From the NCBI GenBank assembly GCA_045837725.1, contig JBEWZL010000260.1, forward strand, positions 248,001-312,000: 64,000 nucleotides of DNA, read 5' to 3'. Positions within the stretch are counted from its first letter, which is position 1; every line of letters starts with the position of its first letter. Source of the DNA: Vermamoeba vermiformis (lineage: Eukaryota). Shown here piece by piece: positions 31,377 through 61,852 of the stretch. Both the position numbers and the translations under genes were made by a program. The notes beneath the pieces are model-generated. The model was not told the DNA's origin, made no database searches, and saw nothing but the letters and a program-made list of their open reading frames with translations.

Positions 31377-32157
31377 ATGGAAGGGTAAGTTGATTTCCGA
31401 GGCGGTAGTCGAAGTTACCGTTGGGGATTGGTACCGTTACTCCATCACTTCCAATCCACAATATATTCCAATTAATGAAACAATTTATTCTTGTAGCACT
31501 GAAAATATATGGGAGATTTTGCCACCCGAAATCGTGTTGAAACTGACTGAATACCTCAGTTTGCAAGATGTGGGACGCTTGACTCTGTTTCCCGCGTACT
31601 AATCGATGCTATAGTACAGGTAATAATAACAAGATTTTTGAGCAATGACTGCAGTTGCTAATATATTACATAAGAACCTGGTGTGGAAGGGGATTTGCAC
31701 ACGTAGGCCTTTCTCGCTCAAAACTATGTTAAAGCACGTTAAATTTGGTCGAACATGGGAGTCTACACGTAGAACTACAAACCTTAACTCATATGAAAAT
31801 GAGCCTAATGCAGATCAGTTCAACTACCGCTTGCTCTTGAAAGAATATTTTATGATTGCAATTTTACGGACGAAACTTCGAACTGAATTAGCTAAATCCG
31901 ATTTTGGTGCATCTTGGGCCGAAATAAGCGTTCTGCAAGAAGATTCGACATCCCAACCTACAGCTCAAACAAACCCTCTTCTCCTATCGCAGTTGTATTA
32001 CTTCGTTGATTGCCCAGCTAAGGAAGGTGTGCCTAAAGAATTTCGCGGCATAAGAATTGCTTACAAGGAAGATCCGCCCGAAACAGGTGTTATCCTAGGC
32101 CTACTGGACACAGTAGTCAACAAATTTGCGTCTGTGTTCGGCATATTTAATAAATAG
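31377..32157 (+). CDS. Small F-box protein
   Basis: WEILPPEIVLKLTEYLSLQDV F-box motif followed by NLVWKGIC; splicing in the middle is ambiguous. Confidence 0.6.
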
Positions 32158-32286: not shown

Positions 32287-34693
32287 ATGGCAAATAATGA
32301 ATACGTAATTGAATATGCAAAAACTGGCAGATCTTCGGTAAGATTTCTTGGCGCCATCTTGGATGTCCAGTTAGCGATGAAGCTTAAATTGTTTACTTAT
32401 CTGTTCGATGCAGTGCAAATTAAAGGCGTGCAAAGGACTTATCGCAGCTCAAGATATTCGCGTTGGAAAGCAATTTGACTCGTAAGTGCTTCGCAAAAAT
32501 CCGAAAAAATATTCATTTAATAATTACTAATTTAATGAAAGTACTCTTACAAGCACATATTAATTTGGTGCAATTTTATTAATTAATAAAATTATTGTTG
32601 GCATTCTGGTGACATCCCGCCTTTCCTCGCTAATTCCTCGAATTTTATTACTGTAGGTACTTCGGCGACCACAAACAAAATGATTGGTACCACTTAGACT
32701 GTATTTTTGAGTCTTTGGCGAACGCACGTGCCACCACAAAGAAAATCACTTCTGCCGATGATCTGCAGGGCTTTGATCAACTTTCTGAAGCGGATCAGGA
32801 CAAAGTCGCGAGAAAAATCAAAGAATTTAATTCTGGTACGTAACAGCCGTTTTGATTACATTTCACCATTTACGTTTTCGCATCTGGATGTTCTGATCTC
32901 GTTTTCTAGGAGCGATTAAAACCAAGACTAAAGCTAAGACTAAGGCAGTTGATACTAAGCAGACTCAACTTAAATTGAGCCCGACAAAGTCACCAGAGTC
33001 AAACAACAATATCAAAAGCGTGTCAAAGTCACCAACAAAGGCGACCACAACTTTGAAGCCCTTTGCACAAAAAACTAAAGACGATATTGAGGAGCACGGA
33101 GCACCTGCGTATACATGGACCTCTTCATTTATGGATGGTGCTTGGCTCGCGTACCTAGGTCCTCTGATTGAAAAGTTGGTACGTTGTGCAAAATAACCCG
33201 TACTTGCCCACAGTAGGCACAGTAGCTAAGTTAACCTTATTAATTATTATCTATAGGATCCCCAACAGGCAATTTTTAACCAAAAGAAGTCTAATCCTAT
33301 CAATGCACACGCGCTGATCAAGCCATTCGTACTACATCCGCCGAATCAATACAACGTGATCATCGTTAGCACGAGTGATTTGGCACACTCGAATCCTGGT
33401 TATTTATTCGGACCTAAGGACAGTGCTATGACCTTATCCGAGCTCAATGACTCGAGCGACGAAGATCTGCTGCCGATCAAAAACATTGCCATGAGTGTCA
33501 TTCAAAATGCGTCTGAAGAGCAGTTGAATCAGCCTGTGCAAGATTGGATGGAGTGGTGTTATGAGCAAGGTGTTATGTGGCTACCACTGTATCAGAACAC
33601 AAACGACAAAAACGATCTGGCAAACAAATTGGTCAAGGCCTGGCCCGCAATTCTTTTGAAGATTATCAAGATTATTTTAGAGGAAAAGGCTAATGGTCCC
33701 AAGAAAAGAGGATTGGCCTTTGTTTTATTGGGCAAGAAGGCTAGATCTCTCGAACAAATCGTACGCGCGGATCCCGATGTTGTCGACAACTTTTTGCAAA
33801 CTAACAACTCTATTCCAGATTGTACGATATTACAAGTCCATAAGCACGTCCTTGGCTATTAGAATATTGACTGGAAAACATCCGTCGAAGGCTGAGTTCG
33901 ATCCACAAACGCTGTTTTCTGACCTGAACGGAGCACTCGAAGAAACTAACAACAAAGAAATTAAATGGCTCCAAGACGCACGTAAGTTGACTAACAGCAT
34001 TACAATATGGTTCTAATATCATACTTAGCGCAGAAAATGTTCTACTTGAAGACCGAATCTGGCAAACAGATCCCGCTTCCTTTCGATGAACCGATTACTC
34101 TTGGCCGAGGAGATTTACTAGGAATTGACGATAAGAAAGTGAGTCGACAACAAGCGACAGTTGTTGCTAAAACAGATCCAGAGCTGCACGTGGCTGTCAC
34201 TCCAGTAAGTACATCCGATCTCGATCTGAAAAACGGACGTGTTATATTTAATATGTTCTCTATGTAGTTGGGTTCTAATCCAATGTTCTTAATGGACGAT
34301 AATACAATGAAAAGATTGGAAAACAACAAAGTCACAATGGTCTACAAAGACTCTTCGTTCACTTTATGCGCGGCAAAGTACCCATTGCAAGTCATTATGG
34401 ACGTTGCAATTGATCAGCCAAAAAAAGGAGACCCAACTTTGCAAAAGAAATCAAGCACTCCTGTTAAGTCAAAATTGGAAAAGCAATCGAGCGATGGCAA
34501 GAAGCAAGGCGTGAAACGAAAAGCGGAAGAAATCGAAGAAGATGATTGGAGCGCGCAAATTCCTTCAAAACGAGCTAAAAATAGTGAAAAATCGAAGAAC
34601 GATGAAGAAGAGGACTTCAATCCTGACAACGAAGAAGCAGATCCGATGGACAATGTAATCCTTCCTGATAGCGAACATAGCTCTAGTGATTAA
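32287..34693 (+). CDS. PARP-type zinc finger + degenerate uracil-DNA glycosylase fold + aprataxin/PNKP-type FHA + charged tail
   Basis: zf-PARP EYAKTGRSSCKLKAC...IRVG...WYHLDC; UNG-like W..EQGVMWL...LAFVLLGKKA...ILTGKHPS...F....LFSDLN..L....IKW; FHA ITLGRGDLLGIDDKKVSRQQ...LGSNP. The UNG-to-FHA intron (33982-34028) is in frame. Confidence 0.75.
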
Positions 34694-34915: not shown

Positions 34916-35820
34916 TTATTTGTCTGACTTGTGTTTTTGAGCTGCGACAGGACCACTAATAATAAATTAGCTCATATATTTATTATGCTCATAGATATTA
35001 ATATGTTAATATATATTTGATATCTTCATAGAAATTTCGATGACTTACGTTCCGCCAGGCACCAACTAAACGAGAAAAAGGTTTCGTTAAGGAGAAATTA
35101 AAAAAGAATGAACCAATTAAGGTTATTATTAGTGTTATTTAAATAAGGATACGAGAGCGATGTTGTTTCCGTTCAACAAGATCTGATCCAATTTAATTTG
35201 AGTGATTGAGCCGTCGGGGTTAGTCTCGCTGAGCAAATCCAAAGTCAGTACGCGATCAGATCAGGTCTGTTTAGTAATGCTAATTAACTTACAATTCAAC
35301 AACGTCCTCCAAGACCATGTCTGTTGGATTAGTATTTAAGGAAAATAAGATAGAAACAATGAATGGTTGGCGGCATCCGCTACGAATTTTCAAGCAGAAA
35401 ATTAAAAGGCAACAACGTCCTTAAATATGAATAATAAGGATACTGACATATTCATCAAATCCACTAAGCGTTCCAACGAGCTCTTTGTCGCCCTTCATAA
35501 TGATCCAAATCCGTTGTCCAATGCATCGGTCAACAAGCTCTAAAAAAATATTATAAATATACATAGTATTTGTATATTAATATATATGCGAAAATAAGGC
35601 TTTTATTGAATTTGTACAACCAGTCAAAAATATTATAAATTAATTTTTGCATTTAAAATATCTAGAGGCCGTATTCCCGTAATAATATGGACAATAATGC
35701 AATACTCAAAATATATTGAATATTTAATTAATGTATTAATTTCAGCGATTACATTGATCGAGATCGAAACGAAAACTTACCCAACGGCAAAATAGTCTGA
35801 ATTCCTCCTTCACCTTCCAT
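34916..35820 (-). CDS. LSM5: U6 snRNA-associated Sm-like protein LSm5
   Basis: Spliced sequence [56 protein letters not shown]...[19 protein letters not shown]. Confidence 0.95.
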
Positions 35821-36130: not shown

Positions 36131-38106
36131 ATGGAAACGACTTCCAATCTCGTGCAGATCGGCAAGCTGTGGATAAATTTATCAGCAGCTCGGATTAGCG
36201 AAGTCAGGTTTCGCCAGTTGCCCGGATTATCTGAATTATCATGCTCATTAATTATGGGAGATATTAAATACAACAGCAAAGCAGTATTAGGCCAAAAGAA
36301 AGTGTATCCAGAGCCGATCGGATTGGTCCACGAGTACCTGTGGGACAAAGAATTCGTTTTGTAAGCAAACGATATAACACTTATATAGTCAAGTCATTTT
36401 ATAGCGAAATAGCGATTAAATATTGCAGCAAATCTTTACCTCGGATCTGTCACAAAATCGATTTTGATTTTTGTTTTTTAGAGACGTAGAAAACTTTAAG
36501 CAACCAGTGCGAATCGACATAAACAATGGAAAAGGAGATGTTGTTGGATCTTTCGAGCTTGTTCTTGATAATATAACTCGTGATGAAACGACGGATGTAA
36601 ATGGCGAGATCGAGTATCGAGCTACCAAGGCTACGGAAAAGAGTTTAAGAGCTGCAAGAGTACAAATGCGACGGTCAACATCCAATTTTATGACTTCAAG
36701 CAGAAACGGACAAAATTTAAGTCCGATTTCTCCAATATTTCCGGATGAAGCATTGGATGCGCTACTTGCGGATCAGATCCACATTCGAGCTCATATAGTT
36801 GATTACGCGAACCTAATAGACGTAAGCATAATAACTTTTCAACTATTACGACCGAATTATTGACATTGCAATGTAGATCATCTCGAAGAATTTTATGAGC
36901 GTGACACGCGTCATATGCACGCATATAATAGACGATGAATTGGCAGAGAGTTTATTAACCATATTCGAAGGCCATCCTAATTTCAGACAATTAATGTACA
37001 GCGCTTTGTATGATGAAGTACAGCGAACACAAACAGTAGAAACTTTATTTAGAGTCGATAGCATGGCCACCAAATTAATGAAAAAATATACCAAAAAATA
37101 TGGATCACCTTGGATTATAGAGACGTTAAGGCCACTCGTCGAAAAACTATGGTAATTCGATTTTACATTTTTGCGTTATCAGATCTGACCGTTATTTTAT
37201 GTTACAGCGATAAAGATGTATATATAGAAGTGGACCCCGATAAAATCAAGCCAAATGCAGACCGATTACAACATATCGATAAACTCAAGCAATCAGTTGA
37301 CGCGTTCATGGCGGCTATTGTCGCATCCGAAAAAACTTGCCCTTTGTAAGCTTGAATAATACAATATTGCTAAAAATATGTTAATTTTAATAATATTATA
37401 CTAGGCAAGTAAGAGAACTGTGTCGAATGTTAGTACACGTCGTCAGAACGAAATTTCCGCAGCTCGGTACACGTGTCATCGGAGGATTTTTATTCCTACG
37501 GTATGTCATATAATAGCACAATAATGATACTGCATATAATAGGTCTCACCTACTATCGATAGAGTTATATGCCCGGCAATCACGAGTCCACTAGCGTTTG
37601 GATTAGTCGACACAGATCCGCATCAAAACGCAAAGCGACATCTAGTTTTGATCGCCAAGTTAATTCAGTTAATGGCCAACGGCAATAATTTACGCAAAGA
37701 AAAGTGGGTCGCTGAAGATTTCGAGCAATACTTGCTGAGGCGAGGTCAAGACGCGACATCATTTTGTGACGCTGTCGCGCAAAAGATACCGAACCCACGT
37801 GACAGATCTGACTCACCGTTATCTGAATGGACCTCAGGCGGCATTAATAATAAGACGAGCTTGCCGCACGTTATGATTGCCAGTCAAGCTTTTTCTTCGG
37901 CCGTGGCAAAAAATGCATTGAAGACGCAGCGGATGTCGCAAGCGATGATGACGATCCAAGCGTTAGATAACTTAGCCAAGTCAATATCAAAGCATATTGA
38001 AGTGTTACATAAAGCACTGTCATCAGATCCGCTTGTCGCTGGTCTGTTAAGTGCTGAAATCGAAATGAAATTTTCACCTTTGTTTGAAATACAAAATAAA
38101 CTGTAA
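36131..38106 (+). CDS. C2-like domain + Ras GTPase-activating protein
   Basis: N-terminal C2-like beta-rich region (LWINLSAARI...YLWDKEF); arginine finger TLFRVDSMATKLM; signature GGFLFLRVICPAITSP; LVLIAKLIQLMAN. Confidence 0.88.
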
Positions 38107-38145: not shown

Positions 38146-41100
38146 TTATTGAGCCATTTCTTCGTCCAACAAGTTAGCTACACTTCCTGATTTTCTCAAC
38201 TGCGGCATGTTTGCGACCAACGCACCGAGGCTACTTGTGCGCACCAAACCTCTGCTAGTCTTGACTTCACTCACTAAAGACACATCACATTAGTTAATAG
38301 GCGGCAAGGCAATGATATAATAATGCAAGAATTTCGATATTGAGGTGTAGATTTAAAATTTTAGTCGCGTCAACTTACCAGGCTTCTCGGGTTCTTTGGC
38401 CTTCAAATACATCTCGTGCTCAATCGAGTTTTTAATGATCAATCGCACCACAGTCACTTCACCCTTTTGGCCCTGTCTATGTGCGCGTCCAATAGCTTGG
38501 GACTCATATGCTTGAACCTCTGATTTGGATCCGCTCATCGGATCTGGATGTCGAAATTCAGTGAACTGTTCGTTCATGAAATACGATAGAATGCACTTAC
38601 CCATCAAAATCACGTGACTGGCTTCCACGAGATTTGTTCCAGATGCAGCCTTTTCCAAACTTAGTAAAATGACTTTGACCTTCGAGTTGGCAGCTTTGAA
38701 GCTCTGCAGAGCCTTATTCTTTCTGAATATATTGCCCTCAACAAACGCACTTTCAATGCCGTGATTCTCCAGCAAATCTCCGATCTCTTCGAGATACGCT
38801 GGGAACTGTGAAAAATATCCAGTGTTAGCGCTGATGGTGACACGTGTCAAGTTATGCTCAAAAATCAAATTTGCGCGGATTGAATGGTGAGTGAGTAAAA
38901 TATGAACCGAGGACCATAAATATTTCCAAATAAGGAAGTCGCATGTACCTTCGAGAATACAATGGCTCGGGCCTTTTTGTTCTTGTTGAACAAATCTTTC
39001 AAGTACGTGATCAAATGCGCCAATTTCGTGCCTTGCGTGTTGATCAAATGTTCTTTTTCTTCTTCGGGCGTCTATAAAAAACAACAACGATATCGTTAGT
39101 AGGGACCCCAAACAAAGTTCATGTGGCACTCATTATGACACGTGTCAAAATGTCAAACAAAACAAAGTTGTAGCTATGCATGAGGATAAAACCAAAAAAT
39201 TTGACACTTTGACACTTCGAATCACTCTTAATTTTTTCACGGATCCAGTAAAGTTGCCAAATTAGTAAATTGTTAGTACTTACGCGTCTCTTCTTCGTGT
39301 TCTCGCTCAACACGTTCTCAGTAATGGCTCTCGTCGCAGCCTTTTTGCTGGCTCTGTTGCTGCCTCGTCGTCTAACGTTGGTGTTGTTTTCTTCTTCTTT
39401 CTCCGGCACCACTTCACTGCTCTCAGTTAATTTCTTCGCATTGAGCTGAATGTCCGTTTTGTTGTTGTTGTGCGTCACGCCCTGTGAAGAAAATACTTAA
39501 TACATTTTCCTAATTAGGTAGGTAAAAGTTAAGTATATCGTAAAAAATAGAACTTTGAGGTAAAAATTATATTTTGATTGTGATATCTCTTATGACTTAA
39601 TTTGGATATTTTGAATAATTGAATTCTTACCGCTGCAGCGTACCGACGGAACAATTCTTCTTGTCTTTTGATATCCTTTTCATAATTTTTTATGTTTTCC
39701 TCAAGTGCTGCAATTTGATTCAAGTAATATTCTTCATTGAAACGCCCGCTTTTTTCTCCATCTCGTTCCATTCGTTCACGCTGCTGCTCGAGTTGGCTTC
39801 GCTGATATTCAATGCTCCGTTTGTTGGCCTCTATTCGGGAATAATTATTTGCTACTGCCGCCTACAAAATCAAAAGTTAATTTTTCAGTGAAACACAGAT
39901 TCAGTGAAACATTGATTCAGTGAATGAATGGAGGTGTCGTTGCAAAAAAATTGTTTTTTCGATCGTTTTCATGAAAATAAATTGTTGCAAACTTACGCGT
40001 TTCTGCTCAAGTTTTTCTTCACGAATGATGTTCAATGTTTTGCCGATATTTTTCGGCAATTTGCAGCACAATAATTCTTCAGTTTCATCTTTGTTTAGTA
40101 AGTACTTGGGCGCATTTTTGATTTCGTCATAAAGCACTGCTTCAATTGGCGAGAAATTCAACAGCACGACATCTTCGTTGTAATCAGGCACGGAATATTC
40201 CGTTGTCGCTTGTTTGGTATTTCTCCACAACAAATTTTTCACGAGCAAATCATTTTCAATCCAACTACAGGAAAAACAATTATACCAATTAATATTAATT
40301 TGTCTTATTAATTTTTAATAAATATTAACGGTCGATCGCGTTTAATTATCGAACAAAATATCGAATTCGATACTACGTATCGATTTATAATATCTTTTGC
40401 AAATATTCTTTTGAGAAAAAAGTGTTATTACGTACGAAGAATAAAGATTGGCGGCATTTTCCAAGTCCGCGACTTCTGTTTTGGCGCCCAAATAGACTTT
40501 CACTGGCTCAAATAACTCGCTAAATATTGCTAGTGTTAGCTCGCTTATAAATAATTACATCATTATTGTAATTGACGACCACTTACGGATCTGGGAACGG
40601 AGTGCCAGTGACGTACCAACTGAAATTTCGGCTGTAATGCTTGATGATGCCTATAAATAGCAATAATGAATAAGTTTATCTCGTTCAGTGAAAAATCGCT
40701 GCAAACAAATTTTCGACTTATCAATACGCGAGACTAGTCTCGTCATTTCCTAATTTAGTAATGTCTACTACGTACCAGCCAAAAAACCGTCTTTCAATAT
40801 CTCGTGGCCTTCATCGAGTATAATTCTGTGCCAGTGAAAGTGGTCCAGTAACGGCTGCATCACTTTATCGAGATTTTTCTTCTTAGAAATTGACTGCGAA
40901 AGTATTAGAATATTTCCATATATAGTAACGGCAAGGAAATAAGTAAAGTTGATTTAAATGAAAATATTATTATTGTCCTATTAATGTTCCGCCATATATA
41001 CTAGCGGTAGGACAATACTAAATAAGTCAAAATAAAGTACCTCGAATGAATTCATCACCCAACCCAAAGCGCGTTTTTCAGGCGCGTCACCAGCCATGCT

Positions 41101-52009: not shown

Positions 52010-55000
52010 ATGAGAAAAACAATCGCTTCGTTTGTGGTTGTGTTTCTCTTTGCCATCGTAAATGTTCACGGTATGACCTCAGAATCCGCTCCTTAAAACA
52101 ACTGATACGCTACTAATGATGATTTGTTTCACAGCACTTACGAGATATGTCGCGACTAATGGCCAAGATAGTAATGCCTGCACCTCTTCCGGATCGCCTT
52201 GCAAAAGTTTGAGCTACGCTGTATCTCAAGCTGTAGCTGGCGATACAATTAGCATAGGAGCTGGAACCTATCCTAGCACCAATAATATTGAAGTTAATGT
52301 TGCAAAAAATCTCGTTATCAGTGGAGCCGGATCCACGCCAAACGATTATTGATTTAAATAAGCAAGGTAAGATCTGGAAATATTATAAACACCATCATTA
52401 TTGTAGATTAATTACTACCATTCATTCTACAATTCTGTTTTCTTATCGAATGCTCGCAAAAATAGGCGCGTTCACACTTTAAAGCTGTTCACATATATAT
52501 AATCAAGCACTAAACTCTTTTGGTAATTAGGACGAGGATTCATCTTTAAGGGCAACTCCGATTGCTCAATTTCCGGCTTAACAATCAAAAACGGACTTGG
52601 ATCTGTGCAATCGTACAACTCAATCGCATCCGTTGGTGGCGGAATCATCGTCGATGGATCTTCTCTAGTTCTCCAAGATGTAGTTTTGGACGGATGCGCA
52701 GCGCCTGGTACTACAAGCGCAATGGGAGGCTGCTTGTTCGCTACGGTAAGCTTGATCCGAATTTCCGAACGCGCGAAACAAATTCCAACTCATCGCCCGC
52801 ATGAGATTACATAATTGCGTAACATGATTTCTCCGCGAGAATAGGAATATCCTCCGATTAGGCGAGATTATTATTTTTTTTAAGTTGGCGGCAAGATGCA
52901 GTCGCGACTGAAACACTTTCTGACTTTGGTTTCATTTTTCAGGGCGCTTCTTTAACTCTTACGAATGTAAAGCTACAAAACTGCCACTCTGGCATTGCTG
53001 GTGCTTGGTATTCGGGCGGTGCAACTATTGCGGTCGCGACTGGTATTTCCATCATCAACAGTACTGCCATTGATTCCGGTTGGGGCGGTGGCTGTAAGTA
53101 TTTTCTAAACTATGTTTTCCCTTCATGAATAGTCTAATGCCTCCTTGCTTCTTTTTAACCGTTGATCTATTTTTAGTCGTTCCAGATGACACAACCAACG
53201 CTCAAATTATCGACTCGCTCTTTGAAGGAAATTCTGCAGGCTATGGTGGCGCTTTGGACGATGGTAAGGGATCAATCTCCGATTTACTTCTTTAATGGCC
53301 CGCATAAAGAGTGTGTCTGTGTTTCGAAATTTAATACGGATGTTGGTATCACTGATTACTTTTTACCTAAAATAATGCCTTTTACATAATATTCCATTTT
53401 AGTATACTTTTTAATGTTTTCTTTAACAGGAATCAATGCTACCTACGTTGTCAAAAACACTATTTTTAGATCCAACAGTGCTCAATATGGTGGTGCGATT
53501 TACACCTTTGGATTCGCCGTTTCTCGCTTTGAAAACTGTACTTTTACTCAAAATGTCGCTTCAAATGCTGGCGGTGTCATTCGTACAACGTCTTCGACAT
53601 CCAACACTTTCGTCAACTGCACCATGTCTTATAATAGGGGCTTGGGTTCAGGTGGTGCCATCTCCGCATTCTCCTCGGAGCCGCTTACCGCAGACAACTG
53701 TTACTTTAAAGGAAATTACGCTCAGGTTCGTAAAATCGGTTCACAAAAATTAATCTCGCGACATTACTAAATTTTTAATTATTTAATATAATTTAGCAAA
53801 ACGGTGGTGCTATTGAACATAGTGGCCCTACGTCTATCTACAACAGCGTATTTGAAGACAATCAAAGTGCTTATATTGGTGCTGTCTATGATGTCGTTGG
53901 TACTTCAACGGTTGTGTTCTATAACAACACAATCCGATCCAGCTCGTGCTACCGAGGTGCTATTTCTATCAATATTGGATCTGATGCCATGTAAGCTCAT
54001 ACAAATCATTCTTATAGTCGCACTTCTAATTTGACTTTCCTAGGCCTATTGCAATGGACAACTTGAAGTTTGAGAACAACATTGCTACTGCCTCAGCTGC
54101 AGGCATTGTATTTTCGAACAAAGCTAATGTCACGCTGACTAACTGCGTATTCACTAACGTAAGTTTAGATTTCGTTGCATTAATTAATCGATTTAAAAAT
54201 TAACAACCGCGTAGAACTCTGCACCATACGGAGCTGCCATTGAAACTACTTCCGCCAGCGTTATTACCTTGGACAATAACGATTTTACTGCGAACCGGGC
54301 AACCTCGTAAGCGCTTTTTTTGTATTGGTGTAATAGACTGACTTTGGTCTTGACAGCGGTGGTGCATTGCACATGACTGACACGAGCACCGTATTCGTCC
54401 AAAACAGCCGCTTCACGAACAACGTGGCTATTCTCAACGGAGGTGCCGTCTATCACGAAGCCATTACTGTGCCGCACTTCTCTTCAGTCACTTTTACTGG
54501 CAATAGTGCTCGCAACGGTGGTGCTTACAGCGTTGCCGCGGGTGCCACGAACTGCTTCACATTCGACAAAGTCACGTTCAATAACAACAACGCGACTATT
54601 GGAGGCGGCGCTATTTTCTTCTTGGAAGTGATTGACACGTGCAACTACAACAATTTGTGCTCAAATTGCGCTTTCTCTGGCAATACTGCTTTGTTTGGAA
54701 GTGAAACTGCTTCAACCGCGCATCAACTCACTTTTGGATCTGAGCCTCCAAGTTCACTTTCTTCGTCACAATCCTTCACTGTTAGCTTGCTTTTGCTCGA
54801 CAAGTTCAACCAACAAGTCCAGCAAGAGCTCGACACGTTGATTCAAGCGTCAATTTCCTCGACCAATGCTTCGCTCCAGGGTATCTTGCAACAACAAGTG
54901 AGTTCTAATGGCTCCGTAGAATTCCAGCTCTTGAAGGTCTTTGCGTACCCCGACACCCTCGTGTCATTGACCTTCACGTCACTCACTTCAAACCTGATCC

Positions 55001-56178
55001 CTGCCGTTGTCAACTTGACTATCTTGGACTGCCAAGCTGGTGCTCAGACTTACGTCCTCGACGGTCAATTCAGATGCCTTCAAGTCTACGATGTTGACGA
55101 GTCACTCAAGATTGCCATCTACCTCATCACCTCGGTCCTCATACTTCTTGCCGTTGCCCTGCTTGTCTTTTTGATCGTTAAGCGAAACCACTCTGCTATC
55201 CGCAAAGCCACTCCCGTCTTGTGCTGGATGATCGTTGTTGGTGCCATTTTCTGCTACATCTCAGCGTACATGTGGCTCGAAACTGAAGACCCTTACTGCG
55301 TGCTTCGTATTTTCTTGTTCACGATTGGCTTCACGCTCATGTACAGCTCGTTCTTGGTCAAGGAATGGCGCTTGTACCGCCTCTTCAAGTTCGATAGTTT
55401 GCGCATTACGAAGATCACGGACATTTCCCTCATTCGTGTGGTCGCTGCCTGTGTCTCGTTTGAAGTCCTTATTGCCATCTTGTGGATGATTTTCTTCCCG
55501 TACTTGCAACGCGTTACGATTGATTTATCGTCACTGTCAGAATCAATCACTTATCAATGCGAAAGCGACACTGCTGGATTTTTCTGGGCAATGCTGGCAC
55601 TTAACGGCGTCATCTTGTTCTTGGGCTGTTTGCTAGCCATTGCTACTCGTAATATTCCTGCGAACTACAACGAAAGCAAGCACTTGGGTTTCTCGGTAAG
55701 TACTTACCTCTACGAGCATAACCCCGACGGATCAAGAACTTACTTTTTTCGTTGCAGATCTACAATGCAACTTTGACCATGGGCGTTGTAGTGCCTGTTG
55801 CTTGGGTATTGCAAAACCCCAATGAAAAGTCGATCACTGTCACTGCTGGCATTTTATTCTCTACATCTGCCTCGCTGATCGTCTTGTTCGGTCCTAAACT
55901 CAATTTGTCGCTACACAAAGGAGCCATCATCAAAGCTCTTGATGAAAATATAGGTAAGGAGCCACATTTAATATTTTTTGCGACATTCCAGTGCTAAGTT
56001 TCGCCGTTTAGAAAAACTTGAGCGAGATCTGGGTTGGTTCAAGAAACAACGAGCAGAATTTAATGGCTCATCGAGGTCCTCTGATCGCAGCGTTAGGATG
56101 ACAACAACTAATATATTAACTGAGACTAACGTTAACACTCCCAACCCAACGAGCCACAAAGATAGCTCAGAGATGTAA
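52010..56178 (+). CDS. Family C (7tm_3) GPCR with a parallel beta-helix (GGA-I/FxxN repeat) ectodomain
   Basis: Signal peptide MRKTIASFVVVFLFAIVNVH; YVATNGQDS..C...SPCKSLSYA; many FxxNxA..GGAI repeats; 7TM with IRKATP, FLVKEWRLYRLF, TRNIPANYNESK and LFGPK. Confidence 0.88.
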
Positions 56179-59352: not shown

Positions 59353-61852
59353 CTAATCATTTTTATTGTCACCTCTTTCATTGTTCTCGTTATCGTCTTC
59401 GTCAAAGTTATCCTCGTCTTCATCGCTGTCATCGTCATCTTCGCTATCACTTTCTTCATCCTCTTCATCAAGGTGCTCTTCCATATTCTCTTCCTCGTTA
59501 TGCTCTTCATCTTGCTTCGCTTCTTTGGGCCCGAACATACTTGGATCCGCAACAAAAGTTAGCAAATTCTCGCCAGCGCTGCGGAGTGCTGCCTCTCCTT
59601 CGGACAGTACTTCGTGTGTTGGGCCACTAGGATGCAAGAAGTCTAATTTGCTAATGAATCGTTCAGCCAAGCCTTGATCCCCGGAATCGTAGTGATCTTC
59701 CATGGGTATCACGTGATCAGGAGGTGACATGTCCGCCATTGGCACTTCATTAGGCGATACTCCTCGAACTTGTGCTGAATGCTCCGGATGCAAGCCTGCC
59801 CCTGAGACCGCTGCAGCACCGCCTTGAGCTCTTTTCATCGACTTGGGTGACATACCTAGCGCCAAAAAGTTAACGCTGCACAAGATTTGTTCAGAACAAA
59901 AAACGTACCCGTAATAGCACGATCAATTGAATTTGGCAAGCCACGGTGTCTGCCCAACAGCATGACTATAATGAGCACTAATTTGGATCCGTCGTGCCAT
60001 ACTCCGACGAAGGAGGCCGATGAGTTAGGGTACCCAAGCGAGAGTCCGACGTTGCCAAAACCAGAAATAATCTCGAACAGTACTTTGGATTGCGTGAAAT
60101 AGATGTCACTAATAAAGCGGTCATTTTCGATGAGACAGATCAAAAACAACGCAATAATCAGCCACGAGACATCACGCAGGACGATGTTCTTGACTTGATT
60201 CGTGAAATTGTTTGTTCGGCCGAGACTCTTCGTAATGTACACTGGCTTGTCGTTTGGATCTTCATCTGGGTCCAACTTTTCTTTGCGTCTGCTGATCGGA
60301 TCCGTCAACGATTGGGTTCGATTCATGCCACTTCGCCGAAGGACACCTCTGTTGGTATCTCTCGTACGGTTATTTCTTGAAAACTGTAGTTGCACGTGGT
60401 CGGCTGAATCTCCGAGACCTGACGGAGAGGTTAATTTTCCGTCAGCAGGCGATTGTAGGGTGCTGCCAAGAGGGCGGGTTGGAGTGACACGTGTCAATTG
60501 CGTCTTGGGTCTTCTGAGACGTGACGTTCTGATCGACAAAGTGACTGGATAGGCTGCTATATACATGGCTACTATCCACATGACACGAAGTGCTTCGGAC
60601 GAAAGACTCAGATCCACGCTGTTGAATCCGGCAGCTCTCGTTGAAAACGTTTGAAATATTCCGTTGACTATCTTCTCGATTTGATTTAATCCAGCTAACA
60701 TTGGTTTGTTGAATGCAATCAATTCAAATATTATGAGCTGCACTGAATTGAGCAGGACTAGTGTTATAAATAACCATCGTGTTTGGTACTTTGGAAATAA
60801 TAGCGTGTAGACTTGACGTGGATGCGTGAGCATGTAATGATAAATCTGGTTTGTCGGACATATTCTTCGGAGAACTATTACTATGATTCTGAAAGCTATG
60901 GGAAATGCTGTCAAGCCCGCCAAAATGTAGAACGATAAAATCAACAAAATTGCTGGGCTCGTTTCAAATCCCATTAAATTATCTGATAGCATTATAAGTC
61001 CTGCATTCCCAATAGCGCTTATTGTCACAAATCCAATAAACCAATAGGTGTTGACATTTCGCGCGGCCAAGACAGATCTTCCAAACTCCGAGGCCCAAAA
61101 GTATATAGCCAGAGATAAATAACATGTGACTACCAAGCCCAAGAGGTATAGTAATACTATTCGTATGACATATATGATGCTCATGTATTCTAATCTTGCA
61201 TCGCCTGTCAAAACTATCGATGGATGTGTCAACTTTTTGCCGTCTTTTTGTACGAATGCGCCGTTCCGTTTGATTTCGTCATGAAAATAGCGAATGCGGA
61301 ATAATAGCGGCAAAATACTATGAAATTAAAGGGTTAGAAAATAAGACTATTTTTAGATCGCGACATCTGAACTTTGCAAGATTTCTTTGTATCCGCAAAC
61401 TCTTATTATAAACTATCAATTATTGTGTATTATTATATGTCAGTCGTATTGTAGTGAGTTCGCACCTGTTCCATACAAATGAGCCGATCCAGATGTAGAT
61501 CACCATGAGAACTTGACCGCCAATCGATATCTGTGAGGGATCAATAGAACTTAAGCCAGAACAAGTCATGGAACTAGTCATAGTAAATAGACAATCGACA
61601 TAATCATAGCGTCCGCCTTCAATGCCATAAAATATGCCGGATCCAATGAATATCATGACCACGAAGTATGTGATGTGTATCCGCAAGAAATTTGCATATT
61701 TTCGCAATAGCCATCTAGCTTTTTCCTTAAATAAAATCCACACCGCCCTATTCAATAAAAATAAATCAGATCGAATTTCAAATCGAAAAATTTTTTCACT
61801 TTCACGAGTAGTAAATTATCCAATGAAATATTGTGCTAAACGCTCGGTACAT
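59353..61852 (-). CDS. Trk/HKT-family potassium transporter with acidic C-terminal tail
   Basis: Four MPM pore motifs, MTCSGL, IGNAGL, TRAAGF and FGNVGLSLGY, all with the filter Gly; C-terminal MLLGRHRGLPNSIDRA. Confidence 0.92.
60485..60496. repeat. Dispersed palindrome TGACACGTGTCA (coding, Trk cytoplasmic loop)
   Basis: Exact 12-mer within the QLTRVT codons. Confidence 0.9.

What the first reader, a model, noticed from the sequence alone, without database searches (positions are those of the whole stretch)
32287..34693. Possible new DNA-damage scaffold: zf-PARP + catalytically dead UNG fold + PNKP/aprataxin-type FHA in one protein
Seen: one spliced frame joins a PARP/ligase III-type zinc finger (32287-32835), a family 1 uracil-DNA glycosylase-like domain (about 33110-33980) and an FHA domain (about 34037-34395). 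The UNG domain keeps its structural landmarks (EQGV, FVLLG..A, HPS, FS..N..L, terminal I.W). However, the catalytic GQDPY loop reads VSTSDL and the uracil-specificity LLLN reads MWLP. Established: zf-PARP binds strand breaks, PNKP/APTX/APLF FHAs bind CK2-phosphorylated XRCC1/XRCC4, and UNG needs the GQDP Asp. Inference: a non-catalytic lesion or abasic-site sensor that recruits repair machinery, in the manner of APLF. I know of no described protein with this architecture. From memory, the ILEEK...GLAFVLLGKKARSL segment recalls the divergent UDG domains fused to ADP-ribosyltransferases in some bacteria; this is unverified.
Basis: partly seen in the sequence, partly recalled or inferred. Interest (0 to 1): 0.8.

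Follow-up and report, generated by a model that had tools for sequence, protein, structure and literature searches.

The report
Break-sensor protein with degenerate UNG domain
A probably fungal gene encodes one protein that joins a DNA-nick-sensing zinc finger, a strongly altered copy of the uracil-removing enzyme UNG and a phosphopeptide-binding FHA domain, a combination not found described in the papers searched.

Summary
Window 32287-34693 (+) is one 8-exon gene: 1836-nt CDS, 611 aa, seven GT..AG introns. Spliced RNA-derived records support five of the seven introns. Two full-length relatives have the same layout (P0005 at 78% identity, P0008 at 33%).

- **N-terminus:** a DNA-ligase-III-type zf-PARP finger.
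- **C-terminal half:** a PNKP/aprataxin/APLF-type FHA with its phosphothreonine-binding Arg and Ser-Arg intact.
- **Middle, residues 165-411:** homologous end to end to family-1 UNG. hhalign gives 95.3% probability, E 2.4e-8, 201 columns. The best of 100 column-shuffled controls reached 6.3%. The top NCBIfam family is uracil-DNA glycosylase, E 6e-7.

The middle domain fails the motifs that define UNG. The specificity Asn is Pro. The Leu-intercalation loop is four residues shorter. The Pro-rich loop is replaced. However, an Asp can be aligned to the catalytic Asp, so "dead" is likely but not shown. P0008 adds a C-terminal PBZ finger, which strengthens the APLF analogy.

Both AlphaFold models were poor, so the fold evidence rests mainly on sequence profiles. 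Only these relatives turned up in two billion-scale protein libraries. Four of the six literature searches returned no paper, the other two only unrelated ones, and the two related papers I opened describe other layouts. Best reading: a strand-break adaptor carrying a UNG-derived pseudo-enzyme module.

The parts
32287..34693 (+). Whole CDS, 8 exons, 611 aa, stop TAA at 34691-34693. Exons: 32287-32337, 32414-32481, 32657-32835, 32910-33178, 33257-33760, 33819-33981, 34029-34204, 34268-34693.
   Evidence: The spliced frame was built and checked. P0005 and P0008 are collinear over the whole length. Of the 34 listed differences to reads and contigs of relatives, 29 are synonymous and 31 fall at third codon positions.
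32287..32828 (+). zf-PARP zinc finger of the DNA ligase III type, residues 1-97. It is interrupted by introns 32338-32413 and 32482-32656. Putative zinc ligands are C18, C23, H52 and C55, with Cx4C spacing where ligase III has Cx2C.
   Evidence: Pfam PF00645, E 2.9e-11 on exon 3 and 5.3e-19 on P0005. P0005 aligns from residue 1 with the human DNA ligase III ZnF, 1uw0, E 1e-14. Both introns are skipped in X1 contigs, and 32481>32657 is also joined in RNA-seq reads.
32829..33103 (+). Lys/Ser/Thr/Pro-rich linker, residues 98-164, containing intron 32836-32909. It carries repeated SPTK/SP motifs.
   Evidence: Composition: 14 K+R and 18 S+T in 67 residues. Identity is 63% to P0005 and 31% to P0008. 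AlphaFold pLDDT is below 50 here. Intron 3 is supported only by a loose end at 32836 that reads on into exon 4.
33104..33980 (+). UNG-like (family-1 uracil-DNA glycosylase-derived) domain, residues 165-411. Introns 33179-33256 and 33761-33818 interrupt it.
   Evidence: hhalign of the 3-member family against 54 non-redundant UNGs gives 95.3% probability, E 2.4e-8, 201 columns, query 5-244 of 247 and UNG 7-221 of 228. My own UNG HMM scores it at 18.2 bits, P 7.5e-8, and 0 of 2000 shuffles reached that. NCBIfam NF003592 hits P0005 at E 6e-7. The only PDB profile hit outside the finger, FHA and PBZ families is UNG 3tr7, E 0.072. Foldseek on a poor model gives UNGs at probability 0.91-0.99. Intron 33761-33818 is skipped in an X1 contig and in 6 RNA-seq reads. 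Intron 33179-33256 had no coverage.
33320..33388 (+). Acidic, Ser-rich stretch (motif SELNDSSDEDLL), approximately residues 240-262, containing the 11-residue insertion where UNG has its Pro-rich PPS DNA-contact loop.
   Evidence: The hhalign alignment shows an 11-residue insertion opposite the PPS loop. Composition: 6 D+E and 1 K+R in 23 residues. It is not conserved in P0008.
34037..34417 (+). FHA domain of the PNKP/aprataxin/APLF subtype, about residues 415-520, containing intron 34205-34267.
   Evidence: Pfam FHA_2 PF17913, E 3e-8. The best PDB hits are APLF, aprataxin and PNKP FHA domains, with the GR and SR phosphothreonine-binding residues aligned. Foldseek gives the APLF FHA at probability 1.00 and TMt 0.63-0.68 in both models. 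The intron is skipped in an X1 contig.
34418..34690 (+). Charged C-terminal tail, residues 521-611. It has a basic KRAK patch (a likely nuclear localisation signal) and acidic motifs (EEDDW; FNP..EE.DP.D).
   Evidence: Composition: 23 D+E and 17 K+R in 91 residues. The NP..E.DP.D motif is shared with P0008. No Pfam family was found. No PBZ-like pattern occurs anywhere in the window's ORFs, while P0008 scores as a positive control.

Best explanation
This is one expressed eukaryotic, probably fungal, gene. Its 611-aa product is a modular DNA-strand-break-response adaptor. Shown: the domain identities and their order, namely an N-terminal ligase-III-type zf-PARP finger, a K/S/T/P-rich linker, a strongly diverged family-1 UNG-derived domain, a PNKP/aprataxin/APLF-type FHA domain and a charged tail. 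Inferred mechanism: the zinc finger docks the protein on nicks or gaps, as it does in PARP1 and ligase III. The FHA domain, whose phosphothreonine-binding Arg and Ser-Arg are intact, tethers a CK2-phosphorylated XRCC1- or XRCC4-like partner. The tail, and the PBZ finger in the distant relative P0008, add contacts of unknown kind, possibly to chromatin or poly(ADP-ribose). The UNG-derived domain no longer excises uracil. It lacks the uracil-specifying Asn, the Tyr of the pocket, the Pro-rich loop and four residues of the Leu-intercalation loop. It is nevertheless kept under purifying selection as a non-catalytic module, which could serve for docking a partner or for an altered DNA contact.
For: **Gene model and expression.**
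- Gene model.
- X1 contigs that are 99+% alike skip four introns, and a loose end supports a fifth. RNA-seq reads of a 90-95% alike relative join 32481>32657 (3, 2 and 6 reads) and 33760>33819 (1, 1 and 4 reads).
- Of 34 listed differences, 29 are synonymous. This includes all 13 that fall in the UNG-like domain.
- P0005 is one open 622-codon frame on a 1939-base contig.

**Domains.**
- Pfam zf-PARP and FHA_2 score above their cut-offs.
- The finger aligns with the ligase III ZnF from residue 1.
- The FHA ligand-binding residues are aligned with APLF, APTX and PNKP.

**UNG homology.**
- hhalign gives 95.3%, E 2.4e-8. The best of 100 column-shuffled controls reached 6.3% with a lowest E of 0.0059, and a reversed alignment gave 1.2%. 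Each member alone scores 82.3, 74.2 and 64.7%.
- HMM P-values are 7.5e-8 (window), 7.7e-9 (P0005) and 4e-4 (P0008). Shuffles reaching the observed score: 0, 0 and 1 of 2000.
- Uracil-DNA glycosylase models are the best NCBIfam hits for P0005.
- UNG is the only hit outside the finger, FHA and PBZ families among 26 PDB profile hits.
- The ESM Atlas nearest clusters carry UDG, score 0.80, which is a lead only.

**Loss of UNG motifs.** See the alignments, set against positions invariant in 54 of 54 UNGs.

**Constraint.** The UNG-like domain is 83% identical to P0005, against 63-65% for the linker and tail.

**PBZ in P0008.** E 1.3e-8.
Against: - No biochemical datum exists.
- Both AlphaFold models are poor, with mean pLDDT 44.2 and 44.0. 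The UNG matches of the first have TM-scores of only 0.29-0.39 and rmsd 18-20 A. The second gives no UNG among its listed rows, ranks 1-50.
- Pfam's UDG model does not hit at E up to 10. The NCBIfam scores of 29.5 and 20.7 bits lie far below the equivalog cut-offs of 162 and 185.75.
- An Asp aligns with the catalytic Asp in both lineages, and the His of HPS is kept in the window protein, so residual or altered catalysis is not excluded.
- Introns 33179-33256 and 33982-34028 had no read coverage, and no single record spans the whole mRNA.
- No XRCC1- or XRCC4-like partner could be sought, because no genome is held for this window.
Confidence: 0.6

Rival explanations
1. The UNG-derived domain is still an enzyme, a DNA glycosylase with a changed substrate. 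The zinc finger would deliver it to breaks and the FHA domain would couple it to downstream repair.
For: hhalign puts an Asp of both lineages in the catalytic-Asp column, after a 1-2 residue insertion. The window protein and P0005 keep His-Pro-Ser of motif B and the stacking Phe. The pocket Tyr aligns with Ala. From recalled literature on human UNG, changes of that Tyr and of the specificity Asn widen or switch base specificity rather than abolish chemistry. The domain is under purifying selection.
Against: - The specificity Asn is Pro in all three full-length members.
- The Leu-intercalation loop is four residues shorter in both lineages.
- The Pro-rich loop is replaced.
- P0008 has Asp where UNG has the catalytic His.
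- All these positions are invariant in 54 of 54 UNGs.
- The placement of the Asp is uncertain. The family-profile alignment puts it in an insertion next to that column.
Confidence: 0.17
2. The UNG-derived domain is a non-catalytic reader of a DNA lesion, such as an abasic site or a flipped base.
For: The domain descends from a lesion-binding enzyme. The stacking Phe and, in the window lineage, the HPS motif are kept. Fusion to a nick sensor fits base excision repair intermediates. This is inference.
Against: Of UNG's DNA-contact loops, the Pro-rich loop is replaced and the Leu loop is truncated. In the window lineage the replacement is a stretch with 6 acidic and 1 basic residue in 23. That speaks against UNG-style DNA binding.
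Confidence: 0.18
3. The gene model is an artefact: neighbouring genes were fused, or the UNG likeness is chance in a low-information region.
For: Two of the seven introns lack read support, and no record spans the full mRNA. Pfam does not recognise the middle domain.
Against: - Two independent relatives carry all parts in one frame.
- Splice joints link exons 1-2-3(-4), 5-6 and 7-8.
- The shuffle and reversal controls rule out chance.
- In a scan of 1530 window ORFs with the UNG HMM, the two best are the two exons of this domain.
Confidence: 0.03

Closest known systems
[quoted passage not shown]
   Same: It has the same FHA subtype. APLF is the best solved FHA match, at E 1.6e-3 with exon 7 alone and with the GR...SR residues aligned, and at Foldseek probability 1.00. 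It is likewise a multi-module, largely disordered repair adaptor with an acidic tail. The distant relative P0008 carries a PBZ finger like those of APLF (APLF PBZ chains 2kuo and 2kqb are hit).
   Different: In APLF the FHA is N-terminal and is followed by tandem PBZ fingers (per PMC5087659). Here the FHA lies in the C-terminal half. The window protein has no PBZ. APLF has neither a zf-PARP finger nor a UNG-like domain. No similarity of the tail to APLF's acidic domain was detected.
DNA ligase III N-terminal zinc finger (and PARP1 fingers)
   Same: The first ~100 residues align from Met1 with the human ligase III ZnF, 1uw0, E 1e-14, including the ARATTKKI stretch and the W-x-H-x-x-C ligand motif.
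   Different: The first Cys pair is spaced Cx4C rather than Cx2C. No ligase or PARP catalytic domain follows.
Family-1 uracil-DNA glycosylase (UNG/Ung)
   Same: The homology is collinear over the whole domain. The predicted order of strands and helices matches the four-strand alpha/beta core. QGV, the LLG strand, HPS, the C-terminal helix and I.W are kept.
   Different: GQDPYH is not kept. The specificity Asn is Pro. The PPS loop is replaced. The Leu loop is four residues shorter. Scores are far below the curated cut-offs. The domain is embedded in a 611-aa multi-domain protein.
Dictyostelium APL and PBZ-bearing Dictyostelium Ung
   Same: APL is an FHA (PNKP/APTX/APLF type) plus PBZ adaptor with a further module swapped in. 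According to the same paper, Dictyostelium Ung carries a PBZ domain, so fusions of UNG with poly(ADP-ribose)-reading modules occur (PMC5087659, passages read).
   Different: APL has an N-terminal FHA, a central PBZ and a circularly permuted macrodomain. It has no zf-PARP finger and no UNG-like domain. Dictyostelium Ung is described there as a repair protein, not as a degenerate domain.
Vaccinia D4 uracil-DNA glycosylase and plant ZDP (recalled, not looked up)
   Same: D4 is a UDG-fold protein used structurally, as a polymerase processivity factor. This is a precedent for a non-catalytic use of the fold. Plant ZDP joins zf-PARP fingers to a repair domain.
   Different: D4 is recalled as still being an active glycosylase, and it belongs to a virus. 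ZDP carries a 3'-phosphatase, not a UNG-like or FHA domain. Both statements rest on memory only.

Membership tests
Family-1 uracil-DNA glycosylase (UNG) | Homology to UNG over the whole catalytic domain | tested here: met
   hhalign 95.3%, E 2.4e-8, 201 columns, with controls. HMM P 7.5e-8, and 0 of 2000 shuffles reached it. NF003592 E 6e-7.
Family-1 uracil-DNA glycosylase (UNG) | Score above the curated family cut-offs (Pfam PF03167; NCBIfam NF003592, TIGR00628) | tested here: not met
   No PF03167 hit at E up to 10. 29.5 bits against 162, and 20.7 against 185.75.
Family-1 uracil-DNA glycosylase (UNG) | Water-activating loop GQDPYH with the catalytic Asp | tested here: not met
   The window and P0005 read S-T-S-D-L-A-H. 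P0008 reads G-P-P-A-D-P-H. The Asp can be aligned to the catalytic Asp only with a 1-2 residue insertion. The motif is invariant in 54 of 54 UNGs, but the viral part of that set was fished with the pattern LGQDPYH.
Family-1 uracil-DNA glycosylase (UNG) | Uracil-specifying Asn at the end of strand 2 (LLLN) | tested here: not met
   Pro in the window protein, P0005, P0006 and P0008 (motif WLP). Asn in 54 of 54 UNGs.
Family-1 uracil-DNA glycosylase (UNG) | Motif B, HPSPLS, with the catalytic His and the intercalating Leu loop | tested here: not met
   The window keeps H-P-S, but the loop is four residues shorter and the Leu column holds Ala. P0008 has Asp in the His column and also a four-residue deletion.
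Family-1 uracil-DNA glycosylase (UNG) | Uracil excision activity | not testable with these tools
   This needs an enzyme assay.
zf-PARP (PF00645) | Score above Pfam's gathering cut-off | tested here: met
   44.4 bits on exon 3 alone. 69.2 bits (P0005) and 78 bits (P0008) against 39.3.
zf-PARP (PF00645) | Cys-Cys-His-Cys zinc ligands | tested here: met
   C18, C23, H52 and C55 align with the ligase III ligands. The first pair is spaced Cx4C instead of Cx2C, and this is conserved in P0008.
zf-PARP (PF00645) | Binding to nicks or breaks in DNA | not testable with these tools
   This needs a binding assay.
FHA_2 (PNKP/aprataxin/APLF-type FHA, PF17913) | Score above Pfam's gathering cut-off | tested here: met
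   33.9 bits (window exon 7) and 29.8 bits (P0005) against 23.1. P0008 scores 19.2 bits, below the cut-off.
FHA_2 (PNKP/aprataxin/APLF-type FHA, PF17913) | Phosphothreonine-binding Arg (GR) and Ser-Arg (SR) residues | tested here: met
   LGRG...DKKVSRQQA aligns with the corresponding stretches of APLF, aprataxin and PNKP. The role of these residues is recalled from the literature.
FHA_2 (PNKP/aprataxin/APLF-type FHA, PF17913) | Binding of CK2-phosphorylated XRCC1/XRCC4 | not testable with these tools
   No genome is held in which to seek partners. This needs a pull-down.
APLF orthologue | N-terminal FHA followed by tandem PBZ fingers and an acidic histone-binding tail | tested here: not met
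   The FHA is in the C-terminal half. The window has no PBZ. P0008 has a single terminal PBZ. No match of the tail to the APLF acidic domain was found.

The most novel reading that the evidence does not exclude
A cellular lineage has converted the otherwise rigidly conserved family-1 UNG into a new functional module. One possibility is a glycosylase with a remodelled pocket: the Asp is kept, the Tyr is Ala, the Asn is Pro and the intercalation loop is short, so it could act on a substrate other than uracil at strand breaks. The other is the first cellular UNG pseudo-enzyme that reads a repair intermediate. In either case it is hard-wired to a ligase-III-type nick sensor and an XRCC1/XRCC4-binding FHA. 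This one polypeptide would then combine roles that animals divide among several break-repair factors.
Probability: 0.2. Interest if true: 0.85.

Novelty: new variant of a known kind. Interest (0 to 1): 0.62.

Why it matters
Family-1 UNG is one of the most conserved repair enzymes. In the 54 non-redundant UNGs compared here its catalytic and DNA-contact motifs were invariant (with the caveat that the viral part of the set was fished with one of those motifs). I found no report of a cellular, non-canonical UNG-derived domain built into a break-response adaptor. If the reading is right, it gives three things. It is a natural case of pseudo-enzyme evolution from UNG. It is a new way of wiring nick sensing (zf-PARP) to phospho-dependent scaffold binding (FHA). 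It is also a handle on how an under-studied, probably fungal lineage organises single-strand-break or end-joining repair. The domain boundaries and candidate residues are now defined well enough for direct assays.

Tried and rejected
**Searches that found little or nothing**
- Pfam on the middle domain gave no UDG hit, only a sub-threshold GHL13 match at E 0.037.
- phmmer of P0005 against PDB sequences gave no UNG among 21 hits.
- Exon 5 against 1.84 billion representative proteins gave 2 hits. One is a 132-aa fragment of a close relative (P0006). The other, P0007 at E 7e-4, I judged spurious because it matches a repeated acidic motif.
- Three word-indexed searches of 5.8 billion proteins found only P0005, P0008 and an unrelated ligase III (P0009). 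They returned 1 of 504, 3 of 8000 and 2 of 8000 scored candidates. P0008 dropped out of the third search.

**Structure**
- Both AlphaFold jobs gave low confidence, mean pLDDT 44.2 and 44.0.
- Foldseek on the second model gave only FHA matches and no UNG in the listed rows. I treat this as uninformative, because the middle domain was below pLDDT 50.
- I did not fold with UNG sequences added to the alignment, because that would presuppose the answer.

**Weaker comparisons and a bad alignment**
- hhalign of the whole-protein alignment against E. coli Ung alone, or against ten enterobacterial Ungs, gave only 37.6% and 60.8% probability, over the C-terminal half.
- The first MAFFT alignment with all exon fragments misplaced exons 4 and 8 and was discarded.

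**Gene model**
- My first attempt failed to bridge the frame change near 33760-33860 until P0005 showed the junction.

**Sequencing runs**
- No RNA holder was listed by the index. The evidence came from laying runs.

**Literature**
- Searches returned 0 papers. Searches returned only unrelated papers.
- led to the Dictyostelium APL paper and a rotifer repair-gene paper. Neither describes this architecture.

**Not tested**
Full report
**1. What is in the sequence**

The window is eukaryotic DNA with short introns and about 39% G+C.

From the raw sequence and the relative P0005 I derived an 8-exon model on the + strand:
- 32287-32337
- 32414-32481
- 32657-32835
- 32910-33178
- 33257-33760
- 33819-33981
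- 34029-34204
- 34268-34693

A script that joins these exons gives 1836 nt, 611 codons and a single terminal stop. All seven introns are GT..AG and 47-175 nt long.

One junction is not obvious. The exon-5 frame runs on into a stop at 33860, and the downstream frame differs. The 58-nt intron 33761-33818 resolves this, and P0005 has exactly that junction.

**2. Is it one transcript?**

The run index listed no RNA holder. Laying four runs was informative.
- Contigs of run X1 are 99% or more alike to the window and have no or few other letters. They skip introns 1 (76 nt), 2 (175 nt), 5 (58 nt) and 7 (63 nt).
- A loose end at 32836 continues with the first letters of exon 4, which supports intron 3.
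- Records that lack introns can only come from spliced RNA.
- Raw RNA-seq reads of X8-X10 are only 90-95% alike, so they come from a relative even though they carry the same species label. They join 32481>32657 (3, 2 and 6 reads) and 33760>33819 (1, 1 and 4 reads).
- Introns 4 and 6 had no coverage, and no record spans the whole mRNA.

Of the 34 differences listed, 29 are synonymous and 31 lie at third codon positions. All 13 that fall in the UNG-like domain are synonymous. The frame is therefore under purifying selection.

P0005 is a single open frame of 622 codons on a 1939-base contig. That is what a transcript assembly would give, but this is an inference.

**3. Relatives**

Very few relatives exist in the libraries I could search.
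- Exon 5 found P0005, at 79% identity over 84% of the query. That was 1 hit of 504 candidates.
- An exhaustive HMMER pass over 1.84 billion representatives gave 2 hits. One is a 132-aa fragment of a close relative (P0006). The other I judged spurious.
- Full-length P0005 found P0008: 765 aa, 30% identity by BLASTP, 83% coverage.
- An alignment query added nothing.

In a three-way alignment the window protein is 473/609 identical to P0005 and 194/595 identical to P0008.

The window's own protein is not in the libraries. The source is probably a fungus. A neighbouring TrkH-type transporter ORF is nearest to fungal clusters (a lead only), and a class-C GPCR, a RasGAP and a helicase fragment lie nearby.

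**4. The flanking domains**

*Zinc finger.*
- Pfam zf-PARP scores E 2.9e-11 on exon 3 alone, 5.3e-19 on P0005 and 9.8e-22 on P0008. All are above the cut-off.
- The best solved relative is the DNA ligase III zinc finger, 1uw0, at E 1e-14. It aligns from Met1 and covers the His-x-x-Cys ligands.
- The first Cys pair is spaced Cx4C instead of Cx2C.

*FHA.*
- It is the PNKP/aprataxin/APLF subtype. FHA_2 scores E 3e-8.
- The best solved matches are APLF, aprataxin and PNKP.
- The Gly-Arg and Ser-Arg residues are in register. I recall these as the phosphothreonine contacts.
- In both AlphaFold models the FHA part matches the APLF FHA at Foldseek probability 1.00 and TMt 0.61-0.68.

*PBZ.*
- P0008 ends in a PBZ finger, PF10283, E 1.3e-8.
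- The window has none. A PBZ pattern scan of all window ORFs of 25 aa or more gave 0 hits, while P0008 scored as a positive control.

**5. Is the middle domain UNG-like?**

*Negative or weak results.*
- Pfam says nothing.
- A plain sequence search of the PDB finds no UNG.

*Positive results.*
- The nearest ESM Atlas clusters are UDG-bearing, at score 0.80. This is a lead only.
- A profile of the family against all PDB sequences gives 26 hits at E up to 10. Of these, 25 are zf-PARP, PBZ or FHA chains. The remaining one is a UNG, 3tr7, at E 0.072.
- NCBIfam, with 18,950 models, ranks uracil-DNA glycosylase first for P0005. NF003592 scores E 6e-7 and 29.5 bits, with residues 282-414 on profile positions 102-223 of 225. 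TIGR00628 scores E 3.2e-4. P0008 gets a weak N-terminal match at E 0.19, and the window's exon-6 frame gets E 0.029.

*My own reference set.*
- I built it from E. coli ung, 80 bacterial loci and 80 viral-contig loci.
- 158 sequences were aligned and filtered at 80% identity to 54.
- An HMM from these, run with all filters off, scores the window protein at 18.2 bits (P 7.5e-8), P0005 at 21.5 bits (P 7.7e-9) and P0008 at 6.0 bits (P 4e-4).
- Of 2000 shuffles each, 0, 0 and 1 reached the observed score.

*Profile-profile comparison.*
- The three middle domains against the 54 UNGs give 95.3% probability, E 2.4e-8 and 201 aligned columns. These cover query positions 5-244 of 247 and UNG positions 7-221 of 228.
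- 100 column-shuffled UNG alignments reached at most 6.3% probability, with a lowest E of 0.0059. The reversed alignment gave 1.2%.
- Each member alone gives 82.3%, 74.2% and 64.7%.
- Earlier comparisons with thinner UNG profiles were weaker, at 37.6% and 60.8%.
- A scan of 1530 window ORFs with the UNG HMM ranks the two exons of this domain first and second.

*Structure.*
- This is the weak point. Both AlphaFold runs, each with a 7-row alignment, are poor (mean pLDDT 44.2 and 44.0).
- The P0005 model has the strand and helix order of the four-strand UDG core.
- Foldseek lists six family-1 UNG entries (3tr7, 4uqm, 3zoq, 1okb, 4wrv, 2ssp) at probability 0.91-0.99. Their TM-scores are only 0.29-0.39 and rmsd is 18-20 A.
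- The P0008 model gives no UNG in its listed rows.

I conclude that homology to family-1 UNG is well supported by sequence profiles. The structure predictions only loosely corroborate it.

**6. State of the active site**

The alignments are, and conservation in the 54 UNGs is. The residue roles are recalled from the UNG literature.

| UNG feature | Window / P0005 | P0008 | In 54 UNGs |
|---|---|---|---|
| Water-activating loop GQDPYH | S-T-S-D-L-A-H | G-P-P-A-D-P-H | Invariant, but the viral part of the set was fished with LGQDPYH |
| Specificity Asn (LLLN) | Pro (WLP) | Pro (WLP) | 54 of 54 Asn |
| Pro-rich PPS loop | Lost; an 11-residue insertion in an acidic stretch (6 D+E in 23 residues) | Lost | P86 and S88 in 54 of 54 |
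| Motif B, HPSPLS | H-P-S kept; four residues deleted; Ala in the Leu column | Asp in the His column; also four residues shorter | H-P-S-P in 54 of 54 |

- With a 1-2 residue insertion, the Asp of each lineage falls in the catalytic-Asp column. The family-profile alignment puts it one residue off.
- The Tyr column holds Ala in the window protein and His in P0008.
- The stacking Phe, the LLG strand and the C-terminal I.W are kept.

Canonical uracil recognition and nucleotide flipping are therefore very unlikely, but chemistry as such is not excluded. The domain is constrained: it is 83% identical to P0005, against 63% for the linker and 65% for the tail.

**7. Mechanism, comparison and novelty**

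The best-supported reading is a strand-break adaptor.
- The ligase-III-type finger would bind nicks. This follows from established properties of zf-PARP fingers.
- The FHA would bind CK2-phosphorylated XRCC1/XRCC4-type partners. This is an established property of this FHA subtype, and the ligand residues are shown to be present.
- The tail, and the PBZ in P0008, would add further contacts.
- The UNG-derived domain would be a retained non-catalytic module.

The protein works like APLF or Dictyostelium APL but is a member of neither.
- APLF has an N-terminal FHA and tandem PBZ fingers.
- APL has an FHA, a PBZ and a permuted macrodomain (PMC5087659, passages read).
- That paper also notes that Dictyostelium Ung carries a PBZ, so UNG fusions with poly(ADP-ribose) readers have precedent.
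- A rotifer repair-gene survey describes APLF variants but nothing like this (PMC6264785, passages read).

Of the six literature searches, four returned no paper or only unrelated ones, and neither related paper found through describes the architecture. The library lacks most subscription journals, and I could not query InterPro.

I rate it a new variant of a known kind: an FHA-based repair adaptor with a novel domain set, including what may be the first cellular UNG pseudo-enzyme domain.

Noticed in passing
window 35421-35576 (-): A short ORF downstream on the opposite strand reads like an Sm/LSm-fold protein exon. This was judged by eye from the translation, and the motif is recalled.
   Followed up: no
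window 54337-55776 (+): A 479-aa open frame with a class-C GPCR 7tm_3 domain (E 4.8e-46), plus a short match to a Chlamydia PMP repeat in its N-terminal part. It is an unusual receptor ectodomain.
   Followed up: no
window 59856-61325 (-): A TrkH-family cation transporter frame (E 1e-63). Its nearest ESM Atlas clusters are fungal, at score 0.94. This is the basis for calling the window probably fungal.
   Followed up: partly
window 37543-38106 (+) and 38353-39129 (-): A RasGAP C-terminal fragment and a helicase C-terminal domain fragment lie in open frames. They are presumably exons of neighbouring genes.
   Followed up: no
window 31642-32157 (+): A 171-aa open frame ends 130 nt upstream of the start codon and has no Pfam family. 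It is probably the last exon of the upstream gene.
   Followed up: no
window 32382-34073, runs X8-X10: RNA-seq runs carrying the same species label as the window match it at only 90-95% identity, with mostly synonymous differences. The label may cover diverged strains, alleles or sibling species.
   Followed up: partly
window 33320-33388 (+): The stretch around the insertion that replaces UNG's Pro-rich loop contains an acidic Ser cluster (SSDED). It resembles CK2 sites and, loosely, the S-T-D-E ligands of this FHA subtype. It has Ser rather than Thr and is not conserved in P0008.
   Followed up: partly
window 32910-33103 (+): The linker carries repeated S-P-T-K / S-P motifs, which resemble CDK sites or SPKK-like motifs. 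One of them (SPT) is conserved in P0008.
   Followed up: no
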